Source: Burkholderiales bacterium (GTDB lineage Bacteria > Pseudomonadota > Gammaproteobacteria > Burkholderiales > SG8-39). Taken from it: 64,000 nucleotides of DNA. The DNA lies in contig DATLUZ010000019.1 of the NCBI GenBank assembly GCA_035577785.1, forward strand, positions 1,498 to 65,497, read 5' to 3'. Positions 11,129 through 24,310 of this stretch are shown here, one piece after another. The translations under genes and the position numbers were made by a program. The notes under the pieces are model-generated. The model had not been told where the DNA came from. It made no database searches and saw nothing but the letters and a program-made list of their open reading frames with translations. The number at the start of each line of letters is the position of its first letter. The stretch's first letter is position 1.

Positions 11129-12307
11129 CTAAATGACTTCGAAGAGGCCCGCGGCGCCCATGCCGCCGCCGATGCACATGGTGACCACCACGAGCTTCGC
11201 CTTGCGGCGCTTGCCCTCGATGAGCGCGTGGCCGACCAGCCGCGCGCCGCTCATGCCGTAGGGATGGCCGAGCGCGATCGCGCCGCCGTTCACGTTGAGG
11301 CGCTCGTTCGGGATGCCGATGCGGTCGCGGCAGTAGATCACCTGCACCGCGAAGGCCTCGTTCAGCTCCCACAGGTCGATGTCGGCGACGCCCTTGCCGG
11401 CCTTCTCGAGGAGCTTCGGCACGGCGAACACCGGGCCGATGCCCATCTCGCGCGGGTCGCAGCCCGCCACCGCGAAGCCGCGGAAGACCCCGAGGGGCGT
11501 GAGTCCCCTGCGGCTCGCTTCCCGCTCGCTCATGACGACCGCGGCCGAGGCGCCGTCGGAGAACTGGCTCGCGTTGCCGGCGGCGATGCAGCCGCCCTCG
11601 ATCGCGGGCTTGATCTGCGACACGCCCTCGTAGGTGGTGTCGGGGCGGATGCCCTCGTCCTCGGACACGGTCACTTCGTGGATCGATTCCTTGCCGGTGT
11701 TCTTGTCCGCCACCTTCATCTTGGTGGTGATCGGCACAATCTCGTCCTTGAACTTGCCCGCGACGCGCGCCTTTGCCGCGCGGCTCTGGCTCTGCACGCC
11801 GAAGCGGTCCTGGTCCTCGCGCGTGATCTCGTGAGAGCGAGCCACGTACTCGGCGGTCTGCAGCATCGGCCAGTAGATCTCGCAATGGTGCCGGTGCAGC
11901 CATTCGTCCTGGAAGTGGTGCTTGTTCATCTCGTTCTGCACCAGCGAGATCGATTCCACGCCGCCCGCCACGAACACCTCGCCCTCGCCGGCGATGATGC
12001 GCTGCGCGGCGAGCGCGATGCTCTGCAGCCCCGAGGAGCAGAAGCGGTTCACCGTCATCCCCGGCACCGTGAGCGGGCAGCCGGCGCGAATGGCGATCTG
12101 CCGCGCGATGTTCCAGCCGGTGGCGCCCTCGGGGTTGGCGCAGCCCATGATCACGTCTTCGACCTCGTCGGCGTCGAGCTTCGCGCGGTTCAGCGCCGCG
12201 TGCACCACGTGCCCGCCCATCTTGGCGCCGTGGGTGTTGTTGAGCGCGCCACGCCAGCTCTTGCACAGTGGCGTGCGCGCCGTGGACACAATGACAGCTT
12301 CGGTCAT
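11129..12307 (-). CDS. acetyl-CoA C-acyltransferase (3-ketoacyl-CoA thiolase)
   Basis: Thiolase signatures [11 protein letters not shown] (active Cys), [17 protein letters not shown] and CIGGGMG. Confidence 0.9.
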
Positions 12308-12322
12308 CTCCTGTACCTCCTC

Positions 12323-14416
<2,094 letters not shown>

Positions 14417-14438
14417 CTCCCCCTAGCATAATCCAACC

Positions 14439-14459
14439 GGGACGATCCGGGCTCGTCCC
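14439..14459 (-). terminator. possible hairpin terminator downstream of the small lipoprotein gene
   Basis: GGGACGA-N7-TCGTCCC, a 7-bp stem. The tail on the minus strand (GGTTGGATTAT) is only moderately T-rich. Confidence 0.3.
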
Positions 14460-14517
14460 GGTACGCGCGCCGCAAGCCGTCTACTGAATCCCCGGAACGG
14501 CCAGGCCCGCCCCCTGC

Positions 14518-14721
14518 TCAGAACGCGTCCGGCTGTTCTTCGATGCGGGTCGCCTGATTGATGTGCTGCGCCGGGACGTAGAAGTTTTCGAGGGCCGGCG
14601 TGGGCGTTTGGACGACGGGAAGCGAGGCGTCCGACTGGTATGGCCGCGGCGAGCACGCCGTGACGGAGAGGATGCCCAGGACCAGAATCGCTGCGGGGAT
14701 GGCCAGTTTGATGTTGCGCAT
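14518..14721 (-). CDS. 67-aa lipoprotein with conserved C-terminal tail (tail protein 1)
   Basis: AGGAGA Shine-Dalgarno sequence 7 nt upstream. Signal peptide plus lipobox (ILSVTAC). The tail LENFYVPAQHINQATRIEEQPDAF is repeated in the protein at 20241-20765. Confidence 0.7.
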   Translation of the reverse strand: MRNIKLAIPAAILVLGILSVTACSPRPYQSDASLPVVQTPTPALENFYVPAQHINQATRIEEQPDAF

Positions 14722-14811
14722 GTCGGTCTCCTGTTTTGTGGGTTCGGGTTAACGCGAGGCCAGTATCGCGACCTCTCCCGACGCGATCAGCGCCGCGTTA
14801 CACTGGCTTTT

Positions 14812-14826
14812 TGTGCCGTAATCACA
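14812..14826. promoter_or_regulatory. CRP-type palindrome A: TGTGC-CGTAA-TCACA (extended arms TTTTGTG-N7-CACAAAA, 14809-14829)
   Basis: Lies in the divergent region between tail protein 1 and CRP paralog 1. Same 15-bp architecture as the sites at 15489, 19923 and 20846. Confidence 0.6.
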
Positions 14827-14843
14827 AAATCGCGTCCTGACGC

Positions 14844-15485
14844 ATGCCTCCGGACCAGGCTCCGTTCGCGCATCTCGACGAGCAGGCACTGCGCGGCCTT
14901 GCCCCGGGGGGCGCGGTCAGGTCGTACCCGCGCAACGTCGTGGTGGTGAGCGAAGGCGACCCGACCGACTCGCTGTACGTGGTGTTGTCGGGACGGGTGA
15001 AGGTCTTCGTCGCCGACGAGAACGGCAGGGAGCTCGTCGTCAATACCATCGGCACGGGCGACTACTTCGGCGAGCTGGTGCTGGACGGCCAGGCGCGCGC
15101 GGCTTCCGTCATGACGCTCGAGGCGTCGCGTTTTTTCGTGATTCCGCAGCGCGACGCCGACGCGCTGCTCTCCGGCAACCCTCAGTTCGCGCGGCACCTG
15201 GTGCGCAAGCTCATCGGCAAGGTGCGCTCTCTCACCGAGCAGGTGCGCAACCTCGCGCTGAGGGACGTCTATGCCCGCTTGGTGCGCTTCCTCGAGGAGC
15301 AGGCCGTGGAGGACGGCGGCAGGCGCATTGTGCGCGAGCGCCTCACGCAGGCCGACATCGCTGCGCGGATCGGCGGCTCGCGGGAAATGGTGAGCCGCAT
15401 CCTGAGCGACCTTTCCGCGGGCGGTTACATCCGCGTCGAGGCCAAGCAGATCGTGCTGCTGCGCAAGCTGCCGGCGCACTGGTGA
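14844..15485 (+). CDS. Crp/Fnr-family cyclic-nucleotide-binding transcription factor (CRP paralog 1)
   Basis: cNMP beta-roll (GDYFGELVLDGQARAASV) and C-terminal HTH with CRP-type recognition helix GGSREMVSRIL. No FNR Cys cluster. Confidence 0.85.
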   Translation: MPPDQAPFAHLDEQALRGLAPGGAVRSYPRNVVVVSEGDPTDSLYVVLSGRVKVFVADENGRELVVNTIGTGDYFGELVLDGQARAASVMTLEASRFFVIPQRDADALLSGNPQFARHLVRKLIGKVRSLTEQVRNLALRDVYARLVRFLEEQAVEDGGRRIVRERLTQADIAARIGGSREMVSRILSDLSAGGYIRVEAKQIVLLRKLPAHW

Positions 15486-15488
15486 CGG

Positions 15489-15503
15489 TGTGCATGCGTC
15501 ACA
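15489..15503. promoter_or_regulatory. CRP-type palindrome B: TGTGC-ATGCG-TCACA
   Basis: Starts 4 nt after the CRP1 stop, within a block of about 50 nt conserved with 19921-19970. TAGGGT lies 52 nt downstream of the site centre. The micro-ORF ATG is 89 nt downstream. Confidence 0.6.
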
Positions 15504-15584
15504 GAACTGGCGTGCCGCAGGGCGTCGAGGCCGCGCGCGCCGAGGGCTAGGGTAGCTCCGTCAACTGAACGGAGGAGGTGGCGG

Positions 15585-15770
15585 ATGGATACCCTGGTCG
15601 ATGCGCTCACAATAGCAATGGCGCTTCTGTGCGTGGTCTTTATCGGGTACGGCGCCTGGCTATGCCTGCCGCCGCTTCAGCGTAAGCGGCCCGCCGAGGC
15701 GTCTGCACCCACCTCCGTCAGGAAGCGCGTCCGGTCCATATCGGAGAGGCTTTCGGCAAGCAGCAGGTAG
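15585..15770 (+). CDS. 61-aa single-TM micro-protein (TM unit 1)
   Basis: GGAGGAGG Shine-Dalgarno sequence before the ATG. MDTLVDALTIAMALLCVVFIGYGAWLCL is paralogous to 20035-20166 and to an internal helix of 20241-20765. The 3' 94 nt run antisense into the kinase gene. Confidence 0.5.
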   Translation: MDTLVDALTIAMALLCVVFIGYGAWLCLPPLQRKRPAEASAPTSVRKRVRSISERLSASSR

Positions 15771-17116
15771 AACCGCTCCGACGAGGTCGTCTGGGCGGCC
15801 GCCTTCTTGACCAGGATCTTGGCGATCGGCCCGATGTACGTGGCAAGCCGGCGCTGCGCCGCCTCGATCCGCTCCGCGGTGAGCGCGGCGTCGGTCGGGA
15901 TGCCGGGACGCGGGCCGGTGCCGGAGGCGCGCGGGCCGGTGCCTGACGCGGCGCGCGGCGCGCCGCTGAGCGCGCCGCGCGTCGCCATGAACGCCTTGCG
16001 CTGCTCCTCCGTGTCGAGCTCGCGCGCCATCGTGGCGTAAAGCTCGTCGACGTCGAGCGTACGCCGGCCCGCGCGGCGGACCATCACCTTCGCGACCGGC
16101 CCGACAAAGCGCGCGAGCTGGGTTTCGATCTGCTTGAGGAGCGCGGGGTCCCAGCCCGGCGGCGGCGCGGTGCTGCGTCCCGCGGTCGGCGTGGCGGGGT
16201 TGGAGCCGCTGCCTGGATTGGTGGGCTCGATCTTCGCGGCACGCGGAGCCTCGGAAATGATGGTTTCCTCGGAGAGCGTCGCGCTGACGGGCGCAGCGTG
16301 CGCGTCGAGCAGCGCGCCGAGGAACGCGTTCGCGCTCTCGAAGCGTTCGACCGGCTTCTTGGCGATGGCGCGGGCGATGACGGCGTCGTAGGCGGGCGGG
16401 ACCGGTGGATCGCGGCGCACCTGCGAAGGGGGCAGCGGATTGTCGTGGCAGACCTTGTACGCGGCGGCCTCCACCGAGCCGGCGAAGGGCTTGACGCCGG
16501 TGAGCAGCTCGTACATCACGACGCCGGCGGAGAAGACGTCGGCGCGCCAGTCGATCGTCCCGCCGGTGTAGTGCTCCGGCGCCATGTAGCCCGGCGTGCC
16601 GATGACGAAGCCGGTCTGGGTGAGGTTCGACGAGTCGATCCGCGCGATGCCGAAGTCCGCGATCTTGAGCTTGCCGTTGCGCATCACGATGAGGTTGGCG
16701 GGCTTGATGTCGCGGTGCCAGACGCCCTGCTCGTGCGCGTAGCTGAGCGCTTCGAGAAGCTGGGTCATCGTCGACACGGCGTCGCTCTCCCCGAAGCGCG
16801 TGCCGCGGGCGAAGTATTCGCGCAGGCTGTTGCCCTGGATGAACTCCATCGCAATGTAGGCGAGCCCGTTCTCCTCGCCGTATTCGTGGACCCCGACGAT
16901 GCCTGGGTGCGTGAGGCGCCCGGCCGCCTGCGCCTCGTTCCTGAAGCGCGCGAGCAGGGCCTGGGTGGTGTCCTCCTCGGTCCCGTCCAGGCGGATGGTC
17001 TTGATCGCGACGGTGCGGCGGATGTTGGGGTCGAAGGCCTTGTAGACGACGCCCATGGCGCCGCGGCCGACCACCTCGGTGATCTGGTACTTGCCGATCC
17101 GTTCGATCTGCGCCAT
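15677..17116 (-). CDS. Hanks-type Ser/Thr protein kinase, no TM segment, two tandem C-terminal repeats
   Basis: GRGAMGVVYKA, VAIK, HRDIKPANL, DFGIA and GTPGYMAPE. After a Pro-rich linker there are two units of about 55 aa sharing LAxx[VI]GP[VI]AK[VI][ML]V[RK][RK]A. Confidence 0.9.
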   Translation of the reverse strand: MAQIERIGKYQITEVVGRGAMGVVYKAFDPNIRRTVAIKTIRLDGTEEDTTQALLARFRNEAQAAGRLTHPGIVGVHEYGEENGLAYIAMEFIQGNSLREYFARGTRFGESDAVSTMTQLLEALSYAHEQGVWHRDIKPANLIVMRNGKLKIADFGIARIDSSNLTQTGFVIGTPGYMAPEHYTGGTIDWRADVFSAGVVMYELLTGVKPFAGSVEAAAYKVCHDNPLPPSQVRRDPPVPPAYDAVIARAIAKKPVERFESANAFLGALLDAHAAPVSATLSEETIISEAPRAAKIEPTNPGSGSNPATPTAGRSTAPPPGWDPALLKQIETQLARFVGPVAKVMVRRAGRRTLDVDELYATMARELDTEEQRKAFMATRGALSGAPRAASGTGPRASGTGPRPGIPTDAALTAERIEAAQRRLATYIGPIAKILVKKAAAQTTSSERFYLLLAESLSDMDRTRFLTEVGADASAGRLR

Positions 17117-17123
17117 CCGCGGG

Positions 17124-18023
17124 CTACTCTTCGAGCATCTTCATCGCCTGAGCGACGCTTTTCTTCATGCGGTTGAAGGAGTCGGCGAGCGTGCGGATCT
17201 CGTCCCGGGAGCGCAGATGGAAGTCGGGGACGTCCATGTTGCCCATGCTGACCTGGTCGGCGAGCTTCGCCAGCCGGGACACCGGCATGATGACCATCGA
17301 AAGGAGCATCGCATTGAGGACAATGCCGACGAAGAGGAAGACGCCGGCGAGCGACAGCATGAACGTGCGGAAGACGGTGCGTGCGCGCTGCGTCGGAACT
17401 TCGGTCGGCACCGACACCACCTGCGCACCGATGATTTCGTTCATCTTCCAGCCGAAGCCGTTCGCCGGCCCGTACCGGTCGATCAGCGTCTTCGGCGCGG
17501 CGTCGACGGTGCTGTGGCAGGTCAGGCAGGCGCCGTCGCGTATCTGGATCGGCCTGGCAATGTACAGCAGGCGCCCGGCGGGGGTGTCGCGCTCGCCGAT
17601 GATCTCGGTGCTCTCGGCATTGTTGCGAAACTGGTTGACCACGTCGGTCTCCCAGTCCACCGCGCGGTTGCGCGGATTCGTCGGGTTGAGCGTCGCCTCC
17701 TTGTAGGCGTACTCCGGAAACTTCTTGCGCAGGCCGTTGAAGACTTCGGCGGCGGAGTAGGCAGGCACCGACTGCGGCAGGAAGCCGTATTTCATCTGGG
17801 TCTGGAGCAGGGGGCCGACCTGGCTCGACGTGTAGCTGCGCGTGGCGAGCGCCGCTTCCATGATCAGCCGCGCGCTGTGCTGCATTTCCTCGCGTGCGTT
17901 TTGCTGCAGTAATGCTTCCGCCACGTAGGCCGCGATGCCTAGGCCGAGCAGGAAGACGGCGACGAACACCAGATTGAACTTGACGATCAGTCTCATTTGA
18001 GCTCCAACGTTGCGCTCATTCAT
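17124..18023 (-). CDS. membrane sensor: periplasmic DUF3365 (Tll0287-like, CxxCH heme-c) domain + HAMP, no output domain
   Basis: TM1, then a periplasmic domain of about 190 aa with ACLTCH, then TM2, then HAMP (PVSRLAKLADQVSMGN...IRTLADSFNRM), then the stop. It ends 7 nt before the kinase start. An alternative start exists at 17996. Confidence 0.75.
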   Translation of the reverse strand: MNERNVGAQMRLIVKFNLVFVAVFLLGLGIAAYVAEALLQQNAREEMQHSARLIMEAALATRSYTSSQVGPLLQTQMKYGFLPQSVPAYSAAEVFNGLRKKFPEYAYKEATLNPTNPRNRAVDWETDVVNQFRNNAESTEIIGERDTPAGRLLYIARPIQIRDGACLTCHSTVDAAPKTLIDRYGPANGFGWKMNEIIGAQVVSVPTEVPTQRARTVFRTFMLSLAGVFLFVGIVLNAMLLSMVIMPVSRLAKLADQVSMGNMDVPDFHLRSRDEIRTLADSFNRMKKSVAQAMKMLEE

Positions 18024-18948
18024 TCGGCCTTGCGGGCGTCGCCTCGGCTGCAGTCGGCGGTGCTTTTGCCGCGTCCACCAAGGGCGGGGGCTTGGGCAGG
18101 TGCTTCTCCGGGAAGAGGATCGGGTCCCATTCGGGATGGAACCGCAGGTTGGCGATAAGCGCCTTGCGAAACTCGGGGTCCTGCGCCCGGGCGCGCATGC
18201 GCTGCATCAGCGGGCGACGCAGCTCCGGCGGGCCTTTCAGCCAAGGCTCGACCTCCTCGTAGGTGAGGTCTCCGAGCCGACGCGGCGACACGTCCCGGTC
18301 CTTGAACGCGGCCAGCCGCTCGGGCAGGTTGTCGCGGTAGTAAGGTGGCATGGCCGCAACAAAGGCCGGCGCCGGACGCGGCTGGAGGACGCCCCTCTGG
18401 TCGGCCCGGCGCATATAAAACTGGCCCGCGCCGACCGCGACCGGACTGGCCGGAGTCGCCCGAACGAAGCCCTCGGCGAGCCGCAGGGCGCCGCTCTCGA
18501 CGAACAGGCTGGCTTCAGCGCTCTCGACGTGCAGCACGAGCACCCCGTCGGCGCTGCCGAAGCCGAAGAGCGGCGTGGTGACGCGCAGCGGCGCCGCCTT
18601 CGGGGCGAGAGCGAGCTTGGTCCAGCCCTGCAGCAGGTAAAAGTCCGAGACCGCCGCCGCCTTGGCGCCTCGGCCGGTGGCGCCGGCGAGCGCGGCCACG
18701 TGGAACCGACTCCGCGGCCCGAGGCTCACCCGCGCGCCATCGGCGAACGCGATCTGAACCAGCCCCTTGTCCGGCACCTCGACGATGTCGCCGACGTGCA
18801 TGCGCACGCCTTCGGCCAAAGCGAACCGGCCGGTAGCGCGCAGCAGAGCGGCGGGCCCCTCCACCAGCGTGACAACCGGTGGCGCTTCGGCGCCCATCGC
18901 GAGCATAGGAACCACCAGGCAAGCCGCCGCAAATGCCCCCGCAAGCAT
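18016..18948 (-). CDS. periplasmic FecR-domain protein
   Basis: Start at MLAGAF (18948) gives a signal peptide; the ORF extends to 19005. FecR-like pattern VTLVEGPAALLRATGRFALAEGVRMHVGDIVEVPDKGLVQIAFADGARVSL. 8-nt overlap with the next gene. Confidence 0.7.
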   Translation of the reverse strand: MLAGAFAAACLVVPMLAMGAEAPPVVTLVEGPAALLRATGRFALAEGVRMHVGDIVEVPDKGLVQIAFADGARVSLGPRSRFHVAALAGATGRGAKAAAVSDFYLLQGWTKLALAPKAAPLRVTTPLFGFGSADGVLVLHVESAEASLFVESGALRLAEGFVRATPASPVAVGAGQFYMRRADQRGVLQPRPAPAFVAAMPPYYRDNLPERLAAFKDRDVSPRRLGDLTYEEVEPWLKGPPELRRPLMQRMRARAQDPEFRKALIANLRFHPEWDPILFPEKHLPKPPPLVDAAKAPPTAAEATPARPNE

Positions 18949-19022
18949 TGAGCTCGGCGCCCTTTCTAGAATTCCGGGCGATACTATTCCGCGCGATCCA
19001 TTCACGTCAATTTGTCAGCGCC

Positions 19023-19904
19023 ATGTCAGAGCCGTTTTCCTGCGCGGTACTGTTTGCCGATATCAGCGGTAGCACTCGGCTGTACGAGGAGCTCGGAGAC
19101 GCCCAGGCGCTCTCCCGGATCGACCGCTGCCTGCGCCTTCTGCGCGATGCCGCCTTGGAATTCGACGGACGCGTAGTTAAGACGACGGGTGATGGCGTCA
19201 TGTGCTCCTTCGAGCAGGCAGAGTCCGCGCTGCAGGCGGCGCGGTTCATGCAGACGCGGCTGGCCGAGCAGGCGGCGCTCGGCGGCCCGTCCCTCGCCAT
19301 CCACGTTGGCTGCCATTACGGATCGGTGCTCGAGAACGGCGGCGACCTCTACGGCGACTGTGTGAACGTCGCCGTGCGCGTGGTCGGCCTGGCCAAGCCG
19401 GGTCAGGTCATAGCGACCCAGGAGGTGGTCGGCAGGATCGGCGAGAGCCTGCGAGGCAGGGTCCGCGTGCTCGACCACGTGGCCCTGAAGGGAAAGCGCG
19501 AGCCGCTGCAGATCTACGAGCTTTCGTGGCAGGATTCCGAGGAGCTGACCACCGTGGGTACCCGCCTGCAGGAGGCGCCGTCCCGCCTCAAGCTGGTGTT
19601 CGGAAGCCGGGAGATGTGGTTCGACGCGGCCGGGGGGAACGACCTCAGGCTTGGGCGCGACGCGGCGTGCGACATCGTGATCGTGGACCGCCGGGTGTCG
19701 CGGCAGCATGCCCGCATCGAGAAGCGCCGCGACAAGTTCATGCTCATCGACCAGAGCGCTAACGGAACCTACGTTGCCGTGAACGGGGAGTCCGAGATCT
19801 GCCTGCGGCGCGAAGAGCTGGTTCTGCGCGCGAGCGGACGCATCTGCATCGGCCACCGCACCGGCGACGCCGACGCTATCGTGGTGGAGTTCTATTGCCT
19901 GTAA
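19023..19904 (+). CDS. class III adenylate/guanylate cyclase fused to a C-terminal FHA domain
   Basis: Cyclase motifs: VLFADISGST and VKTTGDG (metal Asp residues, Lys), GDLYGDCVNVAVR (Asp, Asn, Arg). FHA motifs: LRLGRD...VSRQHARI...IDQSANGTYVNG-type. Confidence 0.85.
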   Translation: MSEPFSCAVLFADISGSTRLYEELGDAQALSRIDRCLRLLRDAALEFDGRVVKTTGDGVMCSFEQAESALQAARFMQTRLAEQAALGGPSLAIHVGCHYGSVLENGGDLYGDCVNVAVRVVGLAKPGQVIATQEVVGRIGESLRGRVRVLDHVALKGKREPLQIYELSWQDSEELTTVGTRLQEAPSRLKLVFGSREMWFDAAGGNDLRLGRDAACDIVIVDRRVSRQHARIEKRRDKFMLIDQSANGTYVAVNGESEICLRREELVLRASGRICIGHRTGDADAIVVEFYCL

Positions 19905-19922
19905 TACGCGCACCTGCCGGGG

Positions 19923-19937
19923 TGTGCATACGGCACA
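19923..19937. promoter_or_regulatory. CRP-type palindrome C: TGTGC-ATACG-GCACA
   Basis: Perfect 5-bp arms, 19 nt after the cyclase stop. TAAAGT lies 52 nt downstream of the centre, the same spacing as at site B. Confidence 0.6.
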
Positions 19938-20034
19938 GAACCGCAGTGCCTTGCGGCGTCGAGGTCCGCCCCGGTCGGACCTAAAGTGGTCTGCGACGGG
20001 CGGCACCCGCCCCCGCAGCCACCGAGGAGGTTCC

Positions 20035-20166
20035 ATGGACGCACTGGTGCTCGACATCGCTGTTCGTATCCTGTCCGGACTCTGCATGGCCCTGCTTATC
20101 TGGGGCGGATGGCTTTCCATCCGCGGCACCCCGCGCTGGACGGCCGGCGCCACGGTCCAGAGCTGA
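20035..20166 (+). CDS. 43-aa single-TM micro-protein (TM unit 2)
   Basis: GAGGAGG Shine-Dalgarno sequence before ATG 20035. MDALVLDIAVRILSGLCMALLIWGGWLSI is paralogous to 15585-15770. The upstream part of the listed 80-aa ORF is Arg-rich and unlikely to be coding. Confidence 0.55.
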   Translation: MDALVLDIAVRILSGLCMALLIWGGWLSIRGTPRWTAGATVQS

Positions 20167-20240
20167 GGCTCTCCCCCTACTTTCCCCGCCGCCTGGCAAG
20201 ACCCTGGGCCGGGCCGAGCGCCCGCAGAAACCGCCGGCGC

Positions 20241-20765
20241 TCAGAACGCATCCGGCTGTTCCTCGACGCGCGTCGCCTGGTTGGCGTGCTGTGCCGGGAC
20301 GTAGAACTTCTCCAGCGCCGGCGCCGTCGGCGCGGGATTCTCGCTCTGCGTCACCTGCTCGCGGCTCGGCTGGTGCGCGAAAGTCGCGCCCAGGACCGCG
20401 CCGAGCGACACGAGCGCCACGGCCGCGGCCGCGAGCGCGATGCCACGCTTCAAGCTCCAGAATTGACTGGCTGCGGTTCCCTGACCGATGCCGTGACGAT
20501 GTTTGCCGATTCTCATGACGACCTCCTGTAGCGTGCGAACGACGACGAGATACGCCCCGTACGCGAGAAGCGCAGCGGAGCAGATTTCCAGGACACGGAC
20601 CGCGAGGTCCAGCAATTCGGGCAGCCATTCCGTGGTGCTCGCGGCCATCTGCTGGAGCGCGATCCCGCTCCCGTCGGCAAAGACCTCGGCGCGAGCGTGC
20701 GAGCACGGCATCAGGGCCGCGGCGAGCGCGCCGCGGCTCAATCGCAGGACTTGGATGCGGTTCAT
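20241..20765 (-). CDS. 174-aa membrane protein: TM-unit-like helix fused to tail protein (tail protein 2)
   Basis: Start MNRIQV at 20765 with a GGAAGG Shine-Dalgarno sequence. The internal helix LLDLAVRVLEICSAALLAYGAYL matches the micro-proteins. A second TM follows, then the tail LEKFYVPAQHANQATRVEEQPDAF. Confidence 0.65.
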   Translation of the reverse strand: MNRIQVLRLSRGALAAALMPCSHARAEVFADGSGIALQQMAASTTEWLPELLDLAVRVLEICSAALLAYGAYLVVVRTLQEVVMRIGKHRHGIGQGTAASQFWSLKRGIALAAAAVALVSLGAVLGATFAHQPSREQVTQSENPAPTAPALEKFYVPAQHANQATRVEEQPDAF

Positions 20766-20845
20766 GTGGGCCCCTTCCGTGAAACTCTCGGGCCCAGTGT
20801 GCGCAAGCCGGGCGTCCGGTTCAGCGTCGCGTCGCACCCGATTCA

Positions 20846-20860
20846 TGTGAACTAATCACA
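20846..20860. promoter_or_regulatory. CRP-type palindrome D: TGTGA-ACTAA-TCACA
   Basis: Lies in the divergent region between tail protein 2 and CRP paralog 2. Its half-sites match the canonical CRP half-sites. Confidence 0.6.
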
Positions 20861-20919
20861 CAGCCGGGCGTTGCTTGCGCACGCTCCGGACCGGTACCAG
20901 AATGTCCGAAGAGGGGTAG

Positions 20920-21573
20920 ATGCAGGCATCGAAGCCGAAAGAGCCGTCGCCCTGCGACGTCCTGAGCGACGCCGAGCTCAAGGCGCTGTCCGAGCGCGCG
21001 ATCATGCGCGCGTTCGCGAAGAACACGGTGATCGTGAGCGAGGGCGACCGGGCCGATTCGCTCTACATCGTCCTTTCCGGCCGTGTCCGGGCCTACGTGA
21101 GCGACGACCAGGGCAAGGAGATGTTCCTCAGCGAGGCGGGCAAGGGCGAGTATTTCGGCGAAATGGCGCTCGACGAGGGGCCGCGCTCGGCCTCCGTGAT
21201 CACGCTCGAGCCGACCCGGCTTCTGGTCGTGCCGAAAGACGATTTCGCGGCCTTCCTCGCGAAGAGCCCCGAGTTCGCGCTGCACCTCGTGCGCAAGCTG
21301 ATCCGCCGGGTGCGCGCGCTCACCCACGACGTCAAGAGCCTGGCGCTCATGGACGTCTACGGCCGCGTGGCGCGCATGCTCCTCGATCTCGCCGTCGAGC
21401 GCGACGGCGCGCTCGTGATCGAGGACCGGCCGACGCAGCAGGAAATGGCGAACCGGGTCGGCGCTTCGCGCGAGATGATCAGCCGGATCCTCACCGAGCT
21501 GGCCGCCGGCGGCTACATCGAGGTCGCCCGGGACCGCATCACCATCTCCCGCACTTTGCCGTGCGGCTGGTGA
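20920..21573 (+). CDS. Crp/Fnr-family cyclic-nucleotide-binding transcription factor (CRP paralog 2)
   Basis: GEYFGEMALDEGPRSASV (canonical Glu...Arg-Ser cNMP contacts) and recognition helix GASREMISRIL. Clear paralog of 14844-15485. Confidence 0.85.
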   Translation: MQASKPKEPSPCDVLSDAELKALSERAIMRAFAKNTVIVSEGDRADSLYIVLSGRVRAYVSDDQGKEMFLSEAGKGEYFGEMALDEGPRSASVITLEPTRLLVVPKDDFAAFLAKSPEFALHLVRKLIRRVRALTHDVKSLALMDVYGRVARMLLDLAVERDGALVIEDRPTQQEMANRVGASREMISRILTELAAGGYIEVARDRITISRTLPCGW

Positions 21574-21590
21574 AGCTAAGATAGCCGGGC

Positions 21591-22166
21591 GTGCGTCTGT
21601 TCATCAAAAACAGGACCTTCGGGGGAGAAGGCCCGGCCGGGGGGAAGCTCAACCTCCGGCTGTCCGGTTTCGCCGCGCAGCAGATCGTCCCGGTTGACGA
21701 CATCGTGCGGGCCATCGACCGGCTTCCGGATTTTCATCTCGAGGGTCTGCGCGAGATCGCCTATCTGCCCGAATACGCCCCGGACGTGCGCGCCTACCCC
21801 GCCTACCCGCGCTGTGCGCCGCAGGGCGAGTTCGTTCAGTCGGAGAGGCGCATTTTCGTCTACGGGTTCGACCGTCCCGCGATGTTCTTCCATATGCTGC
21901 ATCACGAGATCGGCCATTTCGTGTTCTTTCTGGTGCTCGGCAGCCGCATGAAGAAGCAGTGGGTCACGCAGCTCTTCCCGGAGTCCACTTGCGTGACGGC
22001 GTACGCCGGCAGGAATCCCTGGGAGGACTTCGCGGAGAGCTACGCTTACTACGTGCTCCAGCCTCGGCTTCTCGAGAGGAAGCTGCCCGAAAAGCACGCC
22101 TTCATGCGCGAGTGCGTCTTCTCCGGAGAGGCGTGGGCGCTCAAGGAAAGCGATCGCCTGGGATAA
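21591..22166 (+). CDS. HExxH metallopeptidase-like protein (MtfA/M90-like motif arrangement)
   Basis: GTG start 17 nt after the CRP2 stop. MLHHEIGHFVF plus a downstream NPWEDFAESYAYY. No signal peptide. Confidence 0.5.
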   Translation: MRLFIKNRTFGGEGPAGGKLNLRLSGFAAQQIVPVDDIVRAIDRLPDFHLEGLREIAYLPEYAPDVRAYPAYPRCAPQGEFVQSERRIFVYGFDRPAMFFHMLHHEIGHFVFFLVLGSRMKKQWVTQLFPESTCVTAYAGRNPWEDFAESYAYYVLQPRLLERKLPEKHAFMRECVFSGEAWALKESDRLG

Positions 22167-22197: not shown

Positions 22198-23850
22198 ATG
22201 CACGGCCTGATGATGGACACGCCGCTCCTGATCAGCGACCTGATCCGGCATGCCGATCGGCACCACGGCGCCGGAGAGATCGTCTCGAAGACGGTCGAGG
22301 ATGGCGCGCTTCACCGATACAGCTACCGCGACGCCCACCGCCGCGCCCGCCGCCTGGCGAACGCGCTGAAGGCGCTGGGCGTCGGCATGCACGACCGGGT
22401 CGCGACGCTCGCCTGGAACGGCTTCCGGCATTTCGAGATCTACTACGCGGTCGCGGGCTCGGGCGCGGTGATCCACACCATCAATCCGCGCCTATTCCCC
22501 GACCAGATCGCCTATATCGGGAACCACGCCGAGGACCAGGTCGTGTTCTTCGACCTGACCTTCGCGCCGCTCGTGGAGAAGCTCGCGCCGCAGCTGAAAT
22601 CGGTAAAGCACTTTGTGGCGATGACCGATGCGGCACACCTACCGAAAAACAACATTCCGAACCTGCGCTGCTACGAGGAGCTGATCGAGCAGGCCGCCGA
22701 AGAGTACGAATGGCCGAGCTTCGACGAGCGCACCGCGGCGTGCTTGTGCTACACCTCGGGCACGACCGGCAATCCGAAGGGTGCGCTCTATACCCACCGC
22801 TCCACCATCCTGCACGCCTATGCGGCGGCGCTGCCCGATGCGCTCAACGTGTCGGCGCGCGATGTCATCCTGCCGGTGGTGCCGATGTTTCACGTCAACG
22901 CCTGGGGCATGCCCTACAGCTGCGCGCTGACCGGCGCTAAGCTCGTCTTTCCCGGCCAGCATCTCGACGGCAAGAGCCTGCACCAGCTTTTCGAAGCCGA
23001 AGAAGTCACGATGAGCGCGGGCGTGCCGACCGTGTGGCTGGGGCTGCTCAACTACATGAAGGAGCAGAAGCTCGGGTTCTCGACCCTGAAGCGGGTGGTG
23101 ATCGGCGGCTCGGCCTGCCCGCCGGCGATGATCCGGGCGTTCCAGGACGACTTCGGCGTCGAGGTGCTGCATGCCTGGGGAATGACCGAGATGAGCCCGC
23201 TCGGCACCGTGACGACCTTCAAGCGCAAGCACCTGAAGCAGTCGAAGGAAGAGCGTTACGCGCTGCAGAACAAGCAGGGGCGCGCGATCTACGGCGTGGA
23301 CTTCCGGGTAGTCGACGAAAACGGCGCCGACCTTCCGTGGGACGGCGCCGCCATCGGGGACCTCCAGGTCCGCGGGCCGTGGGTGATCAAGAGCTATTTC
23401 AAGGGCGAGGGCGGCGATCCGCTGGAGAAGGACGCGCACGGCGCGCGCTGGTTCCCGACCGGCGACGTGGTGAACATCGACGCCGAGGGCTTCATCCAGA
23501 TCACCGACCGCTCGAAGGACGTGATCAAGTCGGGCGGCGAGTGGATCAGCTCGATCGACCTCGAGAACATCGCCGTCGCGCATCCGGCGATCGCCGAGGC
23601 CGCGGTGATCGGGGTCAAGCACCCGAAATGGGACGAGCGCCCCATCGTGGTCGCGGTGAAGAAACCCGGCCAAGAGGTGTCGAAAGAGGAGCTGCTCAAG
23701 TTCTACGAGGGCAAGATCGCCAAGTGGTGGATGCCCGAGGACGTGGTATTCGTGAGCGAGCTGCCGCACACCGCCACCGGCAAGCTCTCCAAGCTCACGC
23801 TGCGCCAGCAGTTCAAGGATTTTCGGGTTGATTCGAAGCGAGAGCGCTGA
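22198..23850 (+). CDS. long-chain/medium-chain fatty-acid--CoA ligase (AMP-dependent synthetase)
   Basis: Strong Shine-Dalgarno sequence (GAGGAGG). AMP-binding motif [21 protein letters not shown]-terminal TATGKLSK. Confidence 0.9.
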
Positions 23851-23857
23851 TCGCCCG

Positions 23858-24310
23858 GTGGTGACGCCTTCGATAAGAGAGCTTGAAAGGCGGGTCGGCG
23901 AGGAGGTCGCGGTATCGCCCTGGCTCGACGTAAGCCAGGAGCGCATCGATACCTTCGCCAAGGCGATCGAGGACTTCCAGTGGATCCACGTCGATCCGGC
24001 GCGCGCGAAGAGCTCGCCCTTCGGCGGCACCATCGCCCACGGCTTCCTAACGCTGTCGCTGCTGTCGCACCTCTCCGAGATCACCTTCTCCTTTTCCGAC
24101 CGCAGGATGGGCGTCAATTACGGACTGAACCGGGTGCGTTTCACCTCTCCGGTTCCGAGCGGCGCCCGCGTGCGGGCGCGCTTCACGCTCCTGAAGTACG
24201 AGCCCATCGAGGCAAACGGCGTGCAGGTGACCTGGAACGCGACGGTCGAGATCGAGGGCGCGCCGAAGCCGGCGCTCGTCGCGGAATGGATCGGACGTCA
24301 CTATTACTGA
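23858..24310 (+). CDS. MaoC-like (R)-specific enoyl-CoA hydratase, hot-dog fold
   Basis: [25 protein letters not shown]. Start is uncertain: GTG 23858/23861 after the ligase stop, or TTG 23828 overlapping it. Confidence 0.75.

What the first reader, a model, noticed from the sequence alone, without database searches (positions are those of the whole stretch)
15585..15770. Single-TM micro-protein family in three copies, one fused to the tail protein (Rosetta-stone link), one overlapping the kinase 3' end
MDTLV-DALTIAMALLCVVFIGYGAWLCL (15585-15770) and MDALVLDIAVRILSGLCMALLIWGGWLSI (20035-20166) each follow a strong GGAGG-type Shine-Dalgarno sequence and a palindrome-bearing conserved leader. 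A third copy, LLDLAVRVLEICSAALLAYGAYL, is the first TM helix of the 174-aa protein (20241-20765), whose second half corresponds to the 67-aa tail lipoprotein. The shared pattern is LD[LI]AxR[IV]L...C.ALL.[YW]G[AG][YW]L. Fusion in one locus and separate genes in the other argues that the TM unit and the tail protein act together. Positive residues follow the helix in all three copies, consistent with an N-out/C-in topology. The last 94 nt of the first micro-ORF are antisense to the kinase C-terminus. Either the functional product is only the helix, or the two genes are convergently coupled.
Basis: partly seen in the sequence, partly recalled or inferred. Interest (0 to 1): 0.65.

Follow-up and report, generated by a model that had tools for sequence, protein, structure and literature searches.

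The report
Crp-controlled one-helix membrane micro-protein family
The two tiny ORFs are real genes of an unnamed family of one-helix membrane proteins, probably switched on by a cyclic-nucleotide (Crp-type) regulator and paired with a small periplasmic "tail" protein, which makes them candidate outputs of a recently described nitric-oxide-sensing receptor/kinase pair.

Summary
Observation confirmed. mic1 (15585-15770) and mic2 (20035-20166) exist as described, and a profile of the family hits exactly three places in the 64-kb window: mic1, mic2 and helix 1 of the 174-aa protein (E 7e-8; next hit 0.67). Both ORFs are intact in every syntenic locus fetched. They belong to a family of 95 close and 84 more distant cluster representatives, nearly all 34-99 aa, with the consensus MDxxxLLDxxVxxxxxLCxxLLxYGAWLCL and variable C-tails. 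No Pfam, NCBIfam or PDB relative was found. The "palindrome-bearing leader" is mostly a promoter. A 15-bp TGTG-N7-CACA operator occurs four times in the window (0.28 expected), each time 44 nt upstream of a -10-like hexamer, in front of mic1, mic2, tail67 and p174. The fusion argument holds and is stronger than stated: 126-aa mic-tail proteins start exactly at the mic unit. A distant locus carries crp, then two tail-like genes, then two mic genes. Distant members sit next to Crp, cyclase or cNMP-binding genes. The conserved mic1 tail is explained by the antisense kinase HAMP-binding module, so the helix is the functional core. Translation, topology, Crp binding and function remain untested. 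New variant of a known kind; interest about 0.6.

The parts
15585..15770 (+). mic1: 61-aa micro-protein. Residues 1-29 form the conserved TM unit. Codons 31-61 are antisense to the STK 3' end.
20035..20166 (+). mic2: 43-aa micro-protein. TM unit followed by a short variable basic tail.
   Evidence: Metatranscriptome contigs cover 19949-20220 at low depth.
20538..20630 (-). Third mic unit: helix 1 (residues ~46-76) of the 174-aa protein.
20241..20765 (-). p174: signal peptide plus 18 aa borrowed from a 219-aa secreted protein, then mic unit, basic loop, TM2 with GxxxG, and the conserved periplasmic tail.
14518..14721 (-). tail67: 67-aa membrane-tethered protein (lipobox VTAC) carrying the tail motif PALExFYVPAQHxNQATRxEEQPDAF.
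15489..15503 (.). Operator TGTGCATGCGTCACA upstream of mic1.
19923..19937 (.). Operator TGTGCATACGGCACA upstream of mic2.
14812..14826 (.). Operator (TGTGATTACGGCACA read on the minus strand) upstream of tail67. It lies only 25 nt from the crp1 ATG.
   Evidence: (I1)
20846..20860 (.). Operator (TGTGATTAGTTCACA read on the minus strand) upstream of p174, between p174 and crp2.
15525..15553 (+). Predicted mic1 promoter: weak -35 TCGAGG, 17-nt spacer, -10 TAGGGT (15548-15553). The -10 lies 44 nt after the operator.
   Evidence: inference; the TSS is not mapped
19959..19987 (+). Predicted mic2 promoter: -35 TCGAGG, 17-nt spacer, -10 TAAAGT (19982-19987). The -10 lies 44 nt after the operator.
   Evidence: inference. 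The RNA contig from 19949 starts upstream of the predicted TSS.
15556..15578 (+). mic1 5'UTR: CUCCGU (15556-15561) can pair with ACGGAG (15569-15574), which overlaps the SD GGAGGAGG.
   Evidence: no covariation support
19991..20030 (+). mic2 5'UTR: GC-rich hairpin CUGCG..GGGCGG-CAC-CCGCCC..CGCAG, then the SD GAGGAGG.
14844..15485 (+). Crp1: cNMP-binding domain plus Crp HTH (GGSREMVSRIL). Its orthologue is the constant neighbour of mic in minimal loci.
20920..21573 (+). Crp2: paralogous cNMP-binding Crp-family regulator.
19023..19904 (+). Class III cyclase domain plus FHA domain. mic2-type genes always follow it.
15677..17116 (-). PknB-like Ser/Thr kinase with two C-terminal HAMP-binding bundles (VGPVAKVMVRR, IGPIAKILVKK).
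17124..18023 (-). Cache_heme (Tll0287/DUF3365, CLTCH) plus HAMP receptor with no output domain (CHH type).
18016..19005 (-). Secreted FecR-like protein (sub-threshold FecR hit). Its ORF overlaps the CHH gene start by 8 nt.

Best explanation
Shown by sequence evidence. mic1 and mic2 are genuine protein-coding genes of an undescribed family of 40-100 aa proteins. The conserved part is an N-terminal unit: two acidic residues, then one TM helix ending in [YW]G[AG]WL[CS]. The same unit forms helix 1 of p174.

Inferred from anatomy. The unit inserts N-out/C-in. Each mic gene has its own promoter of one common design: a 15-bp TGTG-N7-CACA operator, 44 nt, then a TAGNNT-type -10. The same design precedes tail67 and p174. 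The four small membrane-protein genes would therefore form the local regulon of the cNMP-binding regulators Crp1 and Crp2. The FHA-cyclase encoded beside the NO-type Cache_heme-HAMP receptor and its Ser/Thr kinase would feed those regulators.

Proposed mechanism. The signal path runs receptor, then kinase, then a phospho-threonine read by the FHA domain, then cAMP, then Crp, then transcription of mic and tail. In the membrane the mic helix packs against the anchor helix of the tail protein; the two are covalently joined in the 126-aa and 174-aa forms. The resulting two-helix unit displays a conserved, disordered ~26-45 aa periplasmic peptide ending in an aromatic residue. That peptide most likely acts back on a periplasmic partner such as the FecR-like protein or the Cache_heme domain. 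The long conserved C-tail of mic1 is a by-product of running antisense into the kinase's HAMP-binding module.
For: Coding:
- The ORFs are intact in all syntenic loci.
- There are 95 homologues of 38-69 aa and 84 representatives at E<=1e-3 among 1.84e9 proteins, nearly all short and matched at the N-terminus.
- GC3 is 0.73-0.90 with GC2 0.43-0.64 in the called frame, and pN/pS is mostly 0.4-0.7, up to 1.14.

Third copy.

Regulon:
- The operator occurs 4 times against 0.28 expected, always in the right intergenic spot.
- It is conserved in L001-3 and L006 and in distant loci.
- The operator-to-(-10) spacing is identical at 44 nt.
- In L004 and L016-18 the -10 TAGATT lies 7 nt before an ATG with no SD.
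- Crp1 is closest to solved cAMP-CRPs and keeps the R-E-x-x-x-R helix.

mic-tail link:
- Separate, 126-aa fused and 174-aa fused forms all exist.
- L037 carries crp, two tail-like genes and two mic genes. The second mic scores hhalign E 2e-7; the tail-likes score E 2e-4 and 3.5e-3. L038 carries a tail-like gene followed by mic.

cNMP link in distant members: Crp (L004, L017-19, L035, L037, L039), SulP-STAS-cNMP (L023, L037) and a cyclase fragment (L033).

Receptor-kinase pair: it matches the CHH-STK system of bioRxiv 10.64898/2026.05.25.727664, whose downstream output is stated to be unknown.

mic1 tail: it is antisense to the conserved ERFYLLLAE.LSD.DRTRFL bundle.
Against: - There is no direct evidence of translation, topology, Crp binding or mic-tail contact.
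- The operator has a 5-bp rather than the canonical 6-bp half-site spacer.
- The TSSs are unmapped, and the only RNA contigs (low depth, unstranded) begin upstream of the predicted TSSs. None was found for mic1.
- pN/pS of 0.4-0.7 in most pairs, and about 1 in two mic1 pairs, indicates only moderate constraint.
- The tail family found by word search is narrow, with 12 proteins. The tail-likeness of the distant L037/L038 proteins is statistically weak (probability 46% and 9%).
- Many mic loci (L004, L019) have no tail gene nearby, so the tail cannot be an obligate partner.
- L035 and L037-39 lack a strict operator.
- AF2 of p174 is low-confidence (mean pLDDT 57) and says nothing about helix packing.
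- The HAMP connector here has Ser, not an obvious Thr, at the position described for P. azotoformans. This was not aligned.
Confidence: 0.6

Rival explanations
1. mic acts on its own as an MgrB/SafA-like small membrane modulator that binds the TM region of a signalling or transport protein. Candidates are the CHH receptor dimer and the SulP-STAS-cNMP transporter. It would give feedback on cNMP signalling, with the tail protein as a lineage-specific add-on.
For: The mic family is much wider than the tail family (against 64). Minimal crp-mic loci have no tail gene. Distant members sit beside cNMP-binding SulP transporters. The helix has an invariant Gly flanked by aromatics at its end.
Against: Fusions and operon adjacency with tail-like proteins occur in both close and distant lineages. 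mic and tail genes share one promoter design. No partner was tested.
Confidence: 0.25
2. The main product is RNA. Crp-driven mic transcripts run convergently into the kinase and p174 genes and act as cis-antisense RNAs or by transcriptional interference. On this reading the peptide is secondary.
For: The 94-nt overlap with the kinase is conserved. There is a 4-nt 3'-end overlap of mic2 with the 126-aa gene in L008. No terminator was predicted after mic1 or mic2. mic is also convergent with the next gene in L004 and L019.
Against: Protein-level conservation of the helix persists while the DNA diverges. In L006, L029 and L031 mic2 is followed by a co-directional gene. The family signature is the peptide, not the overlap. 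There is no Rfam match and no covariation.
Confidence: 0.1
3. The tail is a processed, released periplasmic or extracellular peptide signal. mic serves as its membrane partner for processing, export or immunity.
For: The tail is disordered. It is strongly conserved over 26 residues with an aromatic C-terminus. It is anchored by a lipobox or by a TM helix in different lineages.
Against: No protease or exporter gene is conserved in the loci; the HExxH ORF at 21591-22166 is window-lineage only. The fused forms keep the tail tethered.
Confidence: 0.1
4. The ORFs are chance open frames in GC-rich regulatory DNA, and the shared helix pattern is TM composition bias.
For: Short ORFs abound in this DNA. 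TM profiles attract weak hits, such as sub-threshold T4SS_pilin and DctQ.
Against. Only three hits occur in the window, with a gap of about 7 orders of magnitude in E-value to the next. The Met-Asp start, length class and motif are conserved across roughly 180 clusters.
Confidence: 0.02

Closest known systems
MgrB / SafA-type small membrane proteins (transcription-factor-induced single-pass regulators of sensor proteins)
   Same: Under 100 aa, one TM helix, own promoter under a dedicated signalling regulator, encoded beside the pathway it may feed back on.
   Different: No sequence relation. The predicted topology is N-out/C-in with almost no periplasmic part. mic is paired or fused with a second small protein that carries the periplasmic peptide. 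The controlling regulator is a cNMP-Crp rather than a response regulator. The target is unknown.
CHH receptor - Ser/Thr kinase NO-signalling pair (Deshpande et al., bioRxiv 10.64898/2026.05.25.727664)
   Same: The window encodes Cache_heme(CxxCH)-TM-HAMP with no output domain. It also encodes an adjacent PknB-like kinase with two C-terminal bundles bearing the IGPxA[KR]xxV motifs.
   Different: That work names a PP2C phosphatase as an occasional neighbour and states that the downstream consequences are unknown. FHA-cyclase, Crp, FecR-like and small membrane genes are not mentioned. Here they form the rest of the cluster.
Sinorhizobium meliloti receptor cyclases - Clr - smc02178/smc02177 (PMC5498481)
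   Same: Class III cyclases feed a Crp-like regulator that activates adjacent genes of unknown function through a palindromic box. Clr is among the closest solved relatives of Crp1 (7pza).
   Different: The Clr-box is 16 bp (TGTT-N8-AACA), whereas the box here is 15 bp (TGTG-N7-CACA). The targets here are micro-proteins. There is no kinase/FHA layer in the Clr system.
E. coli CRP class I promoters (e.g. lac)
   Same: TGTG/CACA half-sites, a regulator with an R-E-x-x-x-R recognition helix, a site upstream of a weak -35, and a predicted centre near -64/-65.
   Different: The spacer is 5 bp, not 6 bp. The predicted position is not the canonical -61.5. Neither binding nor the TSS has been measured.
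Rosetta-stone (gene-fusion) inference of interaction
   Same: Two proteins that are separate in some genomes are one polypeptide in others.
   Different: Here the parts are single TM helices plus a short peptide. The fusion exists in two forms (126 aa and 174 aa with an acquired signal peptide), and adjacency in operons adds support.

Membership tests
Bacterial small membrane proteins (single-pass, <100 aa) | ORF of 100 aa or less with one hydrophobic helix | tested here: met
   The maximum 19-residue Kyte-Doolittle score is 2.3 for mic1 and mic2. Family members are 34-99 aa.
Bacterial small membrane proteins (single-pass, <100 aa) | ORF conserved as protein across lineages | tested here: met
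Bacterial small membrane proteins (single-pass, <100 aa) | Demonstrated translation and membrane insertion | not testable with these tools
   Only low-depth, unstranded metatranscriptome contigs cover mic2; none covers mic1.
Named small-protein or any curated family (MgrB, AcrZ, CydX, DUFs ...) | Significant match to a Pfam, NCBIfam or PDB sequence | tested here: not met
   There are no Pfam/NCBIfam hits for mic1, mic2, tail67 or p174. Across 45 family members only sub-threshold hits appear (T4SS_pilin, best E 8e-4, in 5 of 45). PDB gives none.
CRP/cAMP-type activator-dependent promoter | Cognate cNMP-binding Crp-family regulator with an R-E-x-x-x-R recognition helix | tested here: met
   Pfam finds cNMP_binding, HTH_Crp_2 and Crp. 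The closest solved relatives are Mtb CRP, Clr, GlxR and CAP. The helices read GGSREMVSRIL and GASREMISRIL in the sequence.
CRP/cAMP-type activator-dependent promoter | Canonical 16-bp TGTGA-N6-TCACA site | tested here: not met
   All sites are 15 bp, TGTGN-N5-NCACA.
CRP/cAMP-type activator-dependent promoter | Site centred at a class I/II position relative to a mapped TSS | tested here: inconclusive
   The predicted centre is about -64/-65 from -10-like hexamers. The TSS is not mapped, and RNA contigs extend upstream of the prediction.
CRP/cAMP-type activator-dependent promoter | Nucleotide-dependent binding and activation | not testable with these tools
   Needs EMSA, footprinting or reporter assays.
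CHH receptor-STK pair | Cache_heme with CxxCH, TM and a terminal HAMP without an output domain | tested here: met
   Tll0287-like 8e-41 plus HAMP, 299 aa, CLTCH motif.
CHH receptor-STK pair | Adjacent soluble PknB-like kinase with two C-terminal repeats bearing the IGPxAxxxV recognition helix | tested here: met
   Pkinase 1e-51. The motifs VGPVAKVMVRR and IGPIAKILVKK compare with IGPLARFLVRK and IGPIARIVVSR in the preprint. DUF8082 is found on the orthologues.
CHH receptor-STK pair | NO binding and NO-enhanced HAMP-Thr phosphorylation | not testable with these tools
   Biochemical property. The equivalent Thr was not aligned here.
Rosetta-stone pair (mic + tail) | Parts separate in some genomes and fused in others, each part significantly similar | tested here: met
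Rosetta-stone pair (mic + tail) | Physical interaction of the separate parts | not testable with these tools
   No multimer prediction was available. The AF2 monomer of p174 has mean pLDDT 57.
Bacterial lipoprotein (tail67) | Lipobox [LVI][ASTVI][GAS]C after a signal-peptide h-region | tested here: met
   VTAC is conserved in P0191-P0202. It is absent in the L006 74-aa form and in the fused forms, so lipidation is not a family feature.
Structured cis-regulatory RNA / known RNA family | Rfam match or covarying helices | tested here: not met
   Rfam gives 0 hits at E<=1. RNAalifold gives 0 and 1 compensatory pairs.

The most novel reading that the evidence does not exclude
mic and tail proteins are the dedicated membrane output and feedback module of a complete periplasm-to-gene cascade. 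The cascade would run from haem-c NO receptor to Ser/Thr kinase, to phospho-Thr, to FHA-cyclase, to cAMP, to Crp, to micro-proteins. The mic helix would dock into the receptor or transporter TM bundle, and the tethered tail peptide would engage the FecR-like or Cache_heme periplasmic domains. More broadly, the mic family would be a widespread and so far unseen membrane component of bacterial cyclic-nucleotide signalling.
Probability: 0.15. Interest if true: 0.8.

Novelty: new variant of a known kind. Interest (0 to 1): 0.6.

Why it matters
Small membrane proteins are routinely missed by annotation; here the gene caller skipped mic1 in L029. This family has about 180 cluster representatives and no name.

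Its members are consistently linked to Crp-type regulators, cyclases or cNMP-binding transporters, and they carry a distinctive 15-bp operator. That gives a concrete, testable set of target genes for a cAMP circuit in uncultured soil Burkholderiales.

The circuit is wired to the Cache_heme-HAMP/Ser-Thr-kinase pair, whose downstream signalling was explicitly left open in 2026. The locus therefore proposes an answer: an FHA-cyclase reading the phospho-site, with Crp-driven micro-proteins as output. This can be checked with standard reporter, EMSA and two-hybrid experiments.

Tried and rejected
- Rfam scan of 14000-22000: nothing.
- Simple promoter/terminator scan: it missed the weak promoters and found no terminator after mic1 or mic2.
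- An ECF-type GAAC..CGTC reading and a sigma-54 reading of the leader were rejected, because those bases are not conserved in orthologues.
- Degenerate DNA pattern scans and profile scans of GTDB representative genomes returned only the same three soil MAGs plus false positives (a TspO C-terminus and random frames). One alignment was too diverse to scan.
- AF2 of p174 gave mean pLDDT 57 and a disordered tail. It was not good enough for a fold search.
- RNAalifold on both 5'UTRs gave no covariation. The anti-SD pairing remains a suggestion only.
- Metatranscriptomes gave a few low-depth, unstranded contigs over mic2 and p174 and none over mic1. They do not fix a TSS.
- A literature search for the FHA/cyclase/FecR/HAMP combination found nothing relevant.
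- The T4SS-pilin/VirB2 idea for p174 and mic rests on sub-threshold hits in 5 of 45 members and none for p174. It was rejected as TM composition.
- PDB sequence search returned nothing.
- The long 201-aa start for p174 (ATG 20846) was rejected because it lies inside the operator, and the 174-aa start has an SD.
Full report
**1. What is there**

The region is a compact signalling cluster in 68% GC DNA from an uncultured soil Burkholderiales bacterium. Its closest relatives are three soil MAGs, and the sequence is near-identical in many soil and rhizosphere metagenomes. The gene order is as follows.

| Gene | Coordinates | Strand | Features |
|---|---|---|---|
| tail67 | 14518-14721 | - | small tail protein |
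| crp1 | 14844-15485 | + | cNMP_binding + HTH_Crp |
| mic1 | 15585-15770 | + | micro-protein |
| Ser/Thr kinase | 15677-17116 | - | PknB-like |
| Tll0287/Cache_heme + HAMP protein | 17124-18023 | - | no output domain |
| FecR-like secreted protein | 18016-19005 | - | sub-threshold FecR hit |
| class III cyclase + FHA | 19023-19904 | + | |
| mic2 | 20035-20166 | + | micro-protein |
| p174 | 20241-20765 | - | mic unit + tail |
| crp2 | 20920-21573 | + | Crp paralogue |

**2. Is the three-copy pattern more than chance?**

Yes. A profile built from mic1/mic2-type proteins only was searched against every stop-to-stop frame of the 64-kb window. It hits mic1 (E 1.3e-20), mic2 (1.7e-20) and the p174 frame (6.7e-8), and then nothing better than E 0.67. 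Profile-profile comparison of the mic family with the p174 family aligns 29 columns at 90.5% probability, E 1.4e-6. Pairwise BLASTP of mic2 against p174 gives 44% identity over 25 residues, E 1e-5. The p174 C-terminus matches tail67 at 23 of 26 residues, E 3e-16.

**3. Coding or RNA?**

The evidence favours coding.

- Both ORFs are intact in every syntenic locus reached through neighbouring genes: L001-L003, L006, L029 and L031. In L029 the gene caller had not called mic1, so that case is free of ascertainment bias.
- A profile search of 5.8e9 proteins returned 95 homologues of 38-69 aa. An exhaustive HMM search of 1.84e9 representatives returned 84 clusters at E<=1e-3, nearly all 34-99 aa with the match at the N-terminus.
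- The consensus is MDxxxLLDxxVxxxxxLCxxLLxYGAWLCL. The Gly is invariant and the start Met and W-L are nearly invariant. Substitutions inside the helix are hydrophobic-for-hydrophobic, while the C-terminal tails are unrelated between subfamilies.
- The called frame shows the GC1>GC2<GC3 signature of real genes in this genome.
- pN/pS in the helix is 0.4-0.7 in most pairs and reaches about 1 in two mic1 pairs, which is moderate constraint.
- In distant crp-mic loci (L004, L016-18) there is no leader at all. A -10-like TAGATT lies 7 nt before the ATG and there is no SD, so what is conserved is the operator, the -10 and the peptide N-terminus rather than an RNA leader.
- Rfam finds nothing, and RNAalifold finds no covariation in either 5'UTR.
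- No Pfam, NCBIfam or PDB relative exists.

**4. The "conserved palindromic leader" is mainly a promoter**

The palindrome is a 15-bp TGTG-N7-CACA element. It occurs exactly four times in the 64-kb window, against 0.28 expected. The four sites are 15489 (mic1), 19923 (mic2), 14812 (tail67) and 20846 (p174).

In all four cases, and in the L006 tail promoter, a -10-like hexamer begins exactly 44 nt after the element. The hexamers are TAGGGT, TAAAGT, GATACT and CACACT. Each has a weak -35 placed 17 nt upstream. The element is conserved at orthologous positions and in distant family loci such as L016-19, L023 and L031.

Crp1 and Crp2 keep the R-E-x-x-x-R recognition helix of CAP, and their closest solved relatives are cAMP-CRPs. 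I infer that the four small membrane-protein genes form the local Crp regulon.

Three caveats apply. The half-site spacer is 5 bp, not 6 bp. No TSS is mapped. The few metatranscriptome contigs (mic2 19949-20220, p174 20457-20816; low depth, unstranded) start upstream of my predicted TSSs.

**5. The fusion argument**

- P0017-P0019 are 126-130 aa proteins that begin MEW..ELLDLAV. They start exactly at the mic unit and continue through a basic loop into the tail anchor and tail.
- In those loci a separate 219-aa secreted protein lies just upstream. The window's p174 carries the first 42 residues of that protein (50% identity, E 1e-8) joined in frame to the 126-aa protein, so p174 is a deletion-fusion.
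- L003 and L020 have only a tail gene beside crp2. L006 and L029 lack the p174/crp2 module entirely.
- The distant locus L037 carries, in order, a SulP-STAS-cNMP transporter, crp, two tail-like genes and two mic genes. Each tail-like protein has a TM anchor, a Y-F-P-A motif, an acidic stretch and a terminal F. hhalign gives E 2e-4 and 3.5e-3 for the two tail-like proteins, which is weak, and E 2e-7 for the second mic.
- L038 has a tail-like gene 22 nt upstream of mic.
- Against an obligate pairing, minimal loci (L004, L019) have crp followed by mic with no tail gene.

**6. The antisense overlap**

The kinase C-terminus ...ERFYLLLAE.LSD.DRTRFL.EVG... is the second of two helical bundles. In the 2026 cryo-EM study these bundles bind the HAMP domain. 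The overlap of 94 nt and both stop codons are conserved.

The near-invariant mic1 tail APTS.RKRVRSISERLSASSR is the reverse-strand reading of that bundle. mic proteins not facing a kinase have unrelated tails. The helix is therefore the functional core, and the overlap needs no special coupling, although convergent transcription effects cannot be excluded.

**7. Context from the literature**

Deshpande et al. (bioRxiv 10.64898/2026.05.25.727664) show three things:

- Cache_heme-HAMP ("CHH") receptors bind NO.
- They bind an adjacent PknB-like kinase through two C-terminal bundles (IGPLARFLVRK / IGPIARIVVSR).
- They are phosphorylated on a HAMP threonine more strongly when NO is bound.

The authors state that the downstream consequences are unknown. 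The window kinase has both motifs (VGPVAKVMVRR, IGPIAKILVKK). Neither that paper nor its companion mentions FHA, Crp or FecR, and neither describes a cyclase or small protein as a neighbour of the receptor-kinase pair.

The cluster here suggests the missing steps: an FHA-cyclase reading the phospho-site, then cAMP, then Crp, then mic and tail. This is inference from gene content only.

**8. Wider association with cyclic-nucleotide signalling**

I could examine seven independent distant contexts.

| Locus or loci | Neighbour of mic |
|---|---|
| L004, L017-19 | Crp1 orthologue |
| L035 | Crp1 orthologue |
| L039 | Crp1 orthologue |
| L037 | Crp plus SulP-STAS-cNMP transporter |
| L023 | SulP-STAS-cNMP transporter, with the same operator |
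| L033 | frameshifted class III cyclase fragment |
| L038 | too short to judge |

mic2-type genes always follow the FHA-cyclase.

**9. Mechanism and confidence**

The following is shown: a real, conserved, unnamed micro-protein family; three copies in the window; fusion and adjacency with tail proteins; a shared and statistically unusual upstream element; and genomic linkage to cNMP components.

The following is inferred: N-out/C-in insertion; Crp-dependent activation; a mic-tail two-helix complex presenting a disordered periplasmic peptide (AF2 pLDDT below 40 in the tail); and feedback on periplasmic sensor parts.

I put about 0.85 on "real Crp-linked small membrane protein genes" and about 0.6 on the whole statement as worded. 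The biochemical role is open.

**10. Novelty**

The kind is known: small membrane proteins induced by a signalling regulator. This family, its operator, its split/fused partnership with a tail peptide and its attachment to a CHH-STK-FHA-cyclase-Crp cassette are not described in the libraries or papers I could search. I rate it a new variant of a known kind, with interest about 0.6.

Noticed in passing
window 20241-20765 (-); L008 1298-2371; L002 2831-3901: p174 is a deletion-fusion. Its first 42 aa are the signal peptide and start of a separate 219-aa secreted protein of unknown family. They are joined in frame to the 126-aa mic-tail protein found in L008-10 and L002.
   Followed up: yes
window 14762-14767, 15548-15553, 19982-19987, 20796-20801: All four operators lie exactly 44 nt upstream of a -10-like hexamer with a 17-nt spacer to a weak -35. 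There are two operator flavours: TGTGCAT.. before mic genes and TGTGATTA.. before tail genes. L006 has only Crp1 yet carries both flavours.
   Followed up: partly
window 15556-15578; L003 3590-3640 (-); L029 5116-5166; L031 454-504: The mic1 5'UTRs, and the mic2 5'UTRs of L003, L029 and L031, start with an anti-SD-like CCUCCGUC that can pair with the SD (GACGGAGG). In the window lineage of mic2 this has changed to CUGCG pairing with CGCAG. There is no covariation support.
   Followed up: partly
L004 2920-2941; L016 220-241; L017, L018: In minimal crp-mic loci the -10-like TAGATT lies 7 nt before the ATG and there is no Shine-Dalgarno sequence. These mic mRNAs are probably leaderless.
   Followed up: partly
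window 15677-19904: The cluster joins the recently described NO-binding Cache_heme-HAMP receptor/Ser-Thr kinase pair to an FHA-cyclase and a FecR-like secreted protein. This suggests that phospho-threonine is read by the FHA domain. The FecR-like and receptor ORFs overlap by 8 nt.
   Followed up: partly
window 21591-22166 (+): A 191-aa ORF with an HHEIGH motif follows crp2. Its hits to Peptidase_Mx and ATLF are sub-threshold. It is absent from L006 and L029, where an AMP-binding gene follows mic2 directly.
   Followed up: no
L037 922-5225; L023 1420-4468: Distant mic-like genes sit beside a SulP-STAS transporter that carries a C-terminal cNMP-binding domain. L037 has crp, two tail-like genes and two mic genes in one array.
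   Followed up: partly
L033 1380-1692: A frameshifted C-terminal fragment of a class III cyclase lies immediately upstream of a distant mic gene.
   Followed up: no
L035 4650-4784: A 44-aa lipoprotein (lipobox ITGC, C-terminal YADSYAQ) lies upstream of a distant mic gene and a Crp1 orthologue. It may be another kind of small periplasmic partner.
   Followed up: no
window 11129-14416 and 22198-24310: The signalling cluster is embedded between fatty-acid beta-oxidation genes: thiolase and enoyl-CoA hydratase/3-hydroxyacyl-CoA dehydrogenase on one side, and acyl-CoA synthetase and a MaoC dehydratase on the other. In L006 and L029 the same flanks enclose a shorter cluster without p174/crp2.
   Followed up: no
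window 20124-20243 versus run X26: A related strain in a metatranscriptome assembly replaces 118 nt (the mic2 C-terminus plus the intergenic spacer) with 25 other letters. The mic2 tail and the convergent spacer are therefore indel-prone.
   Followed up: no
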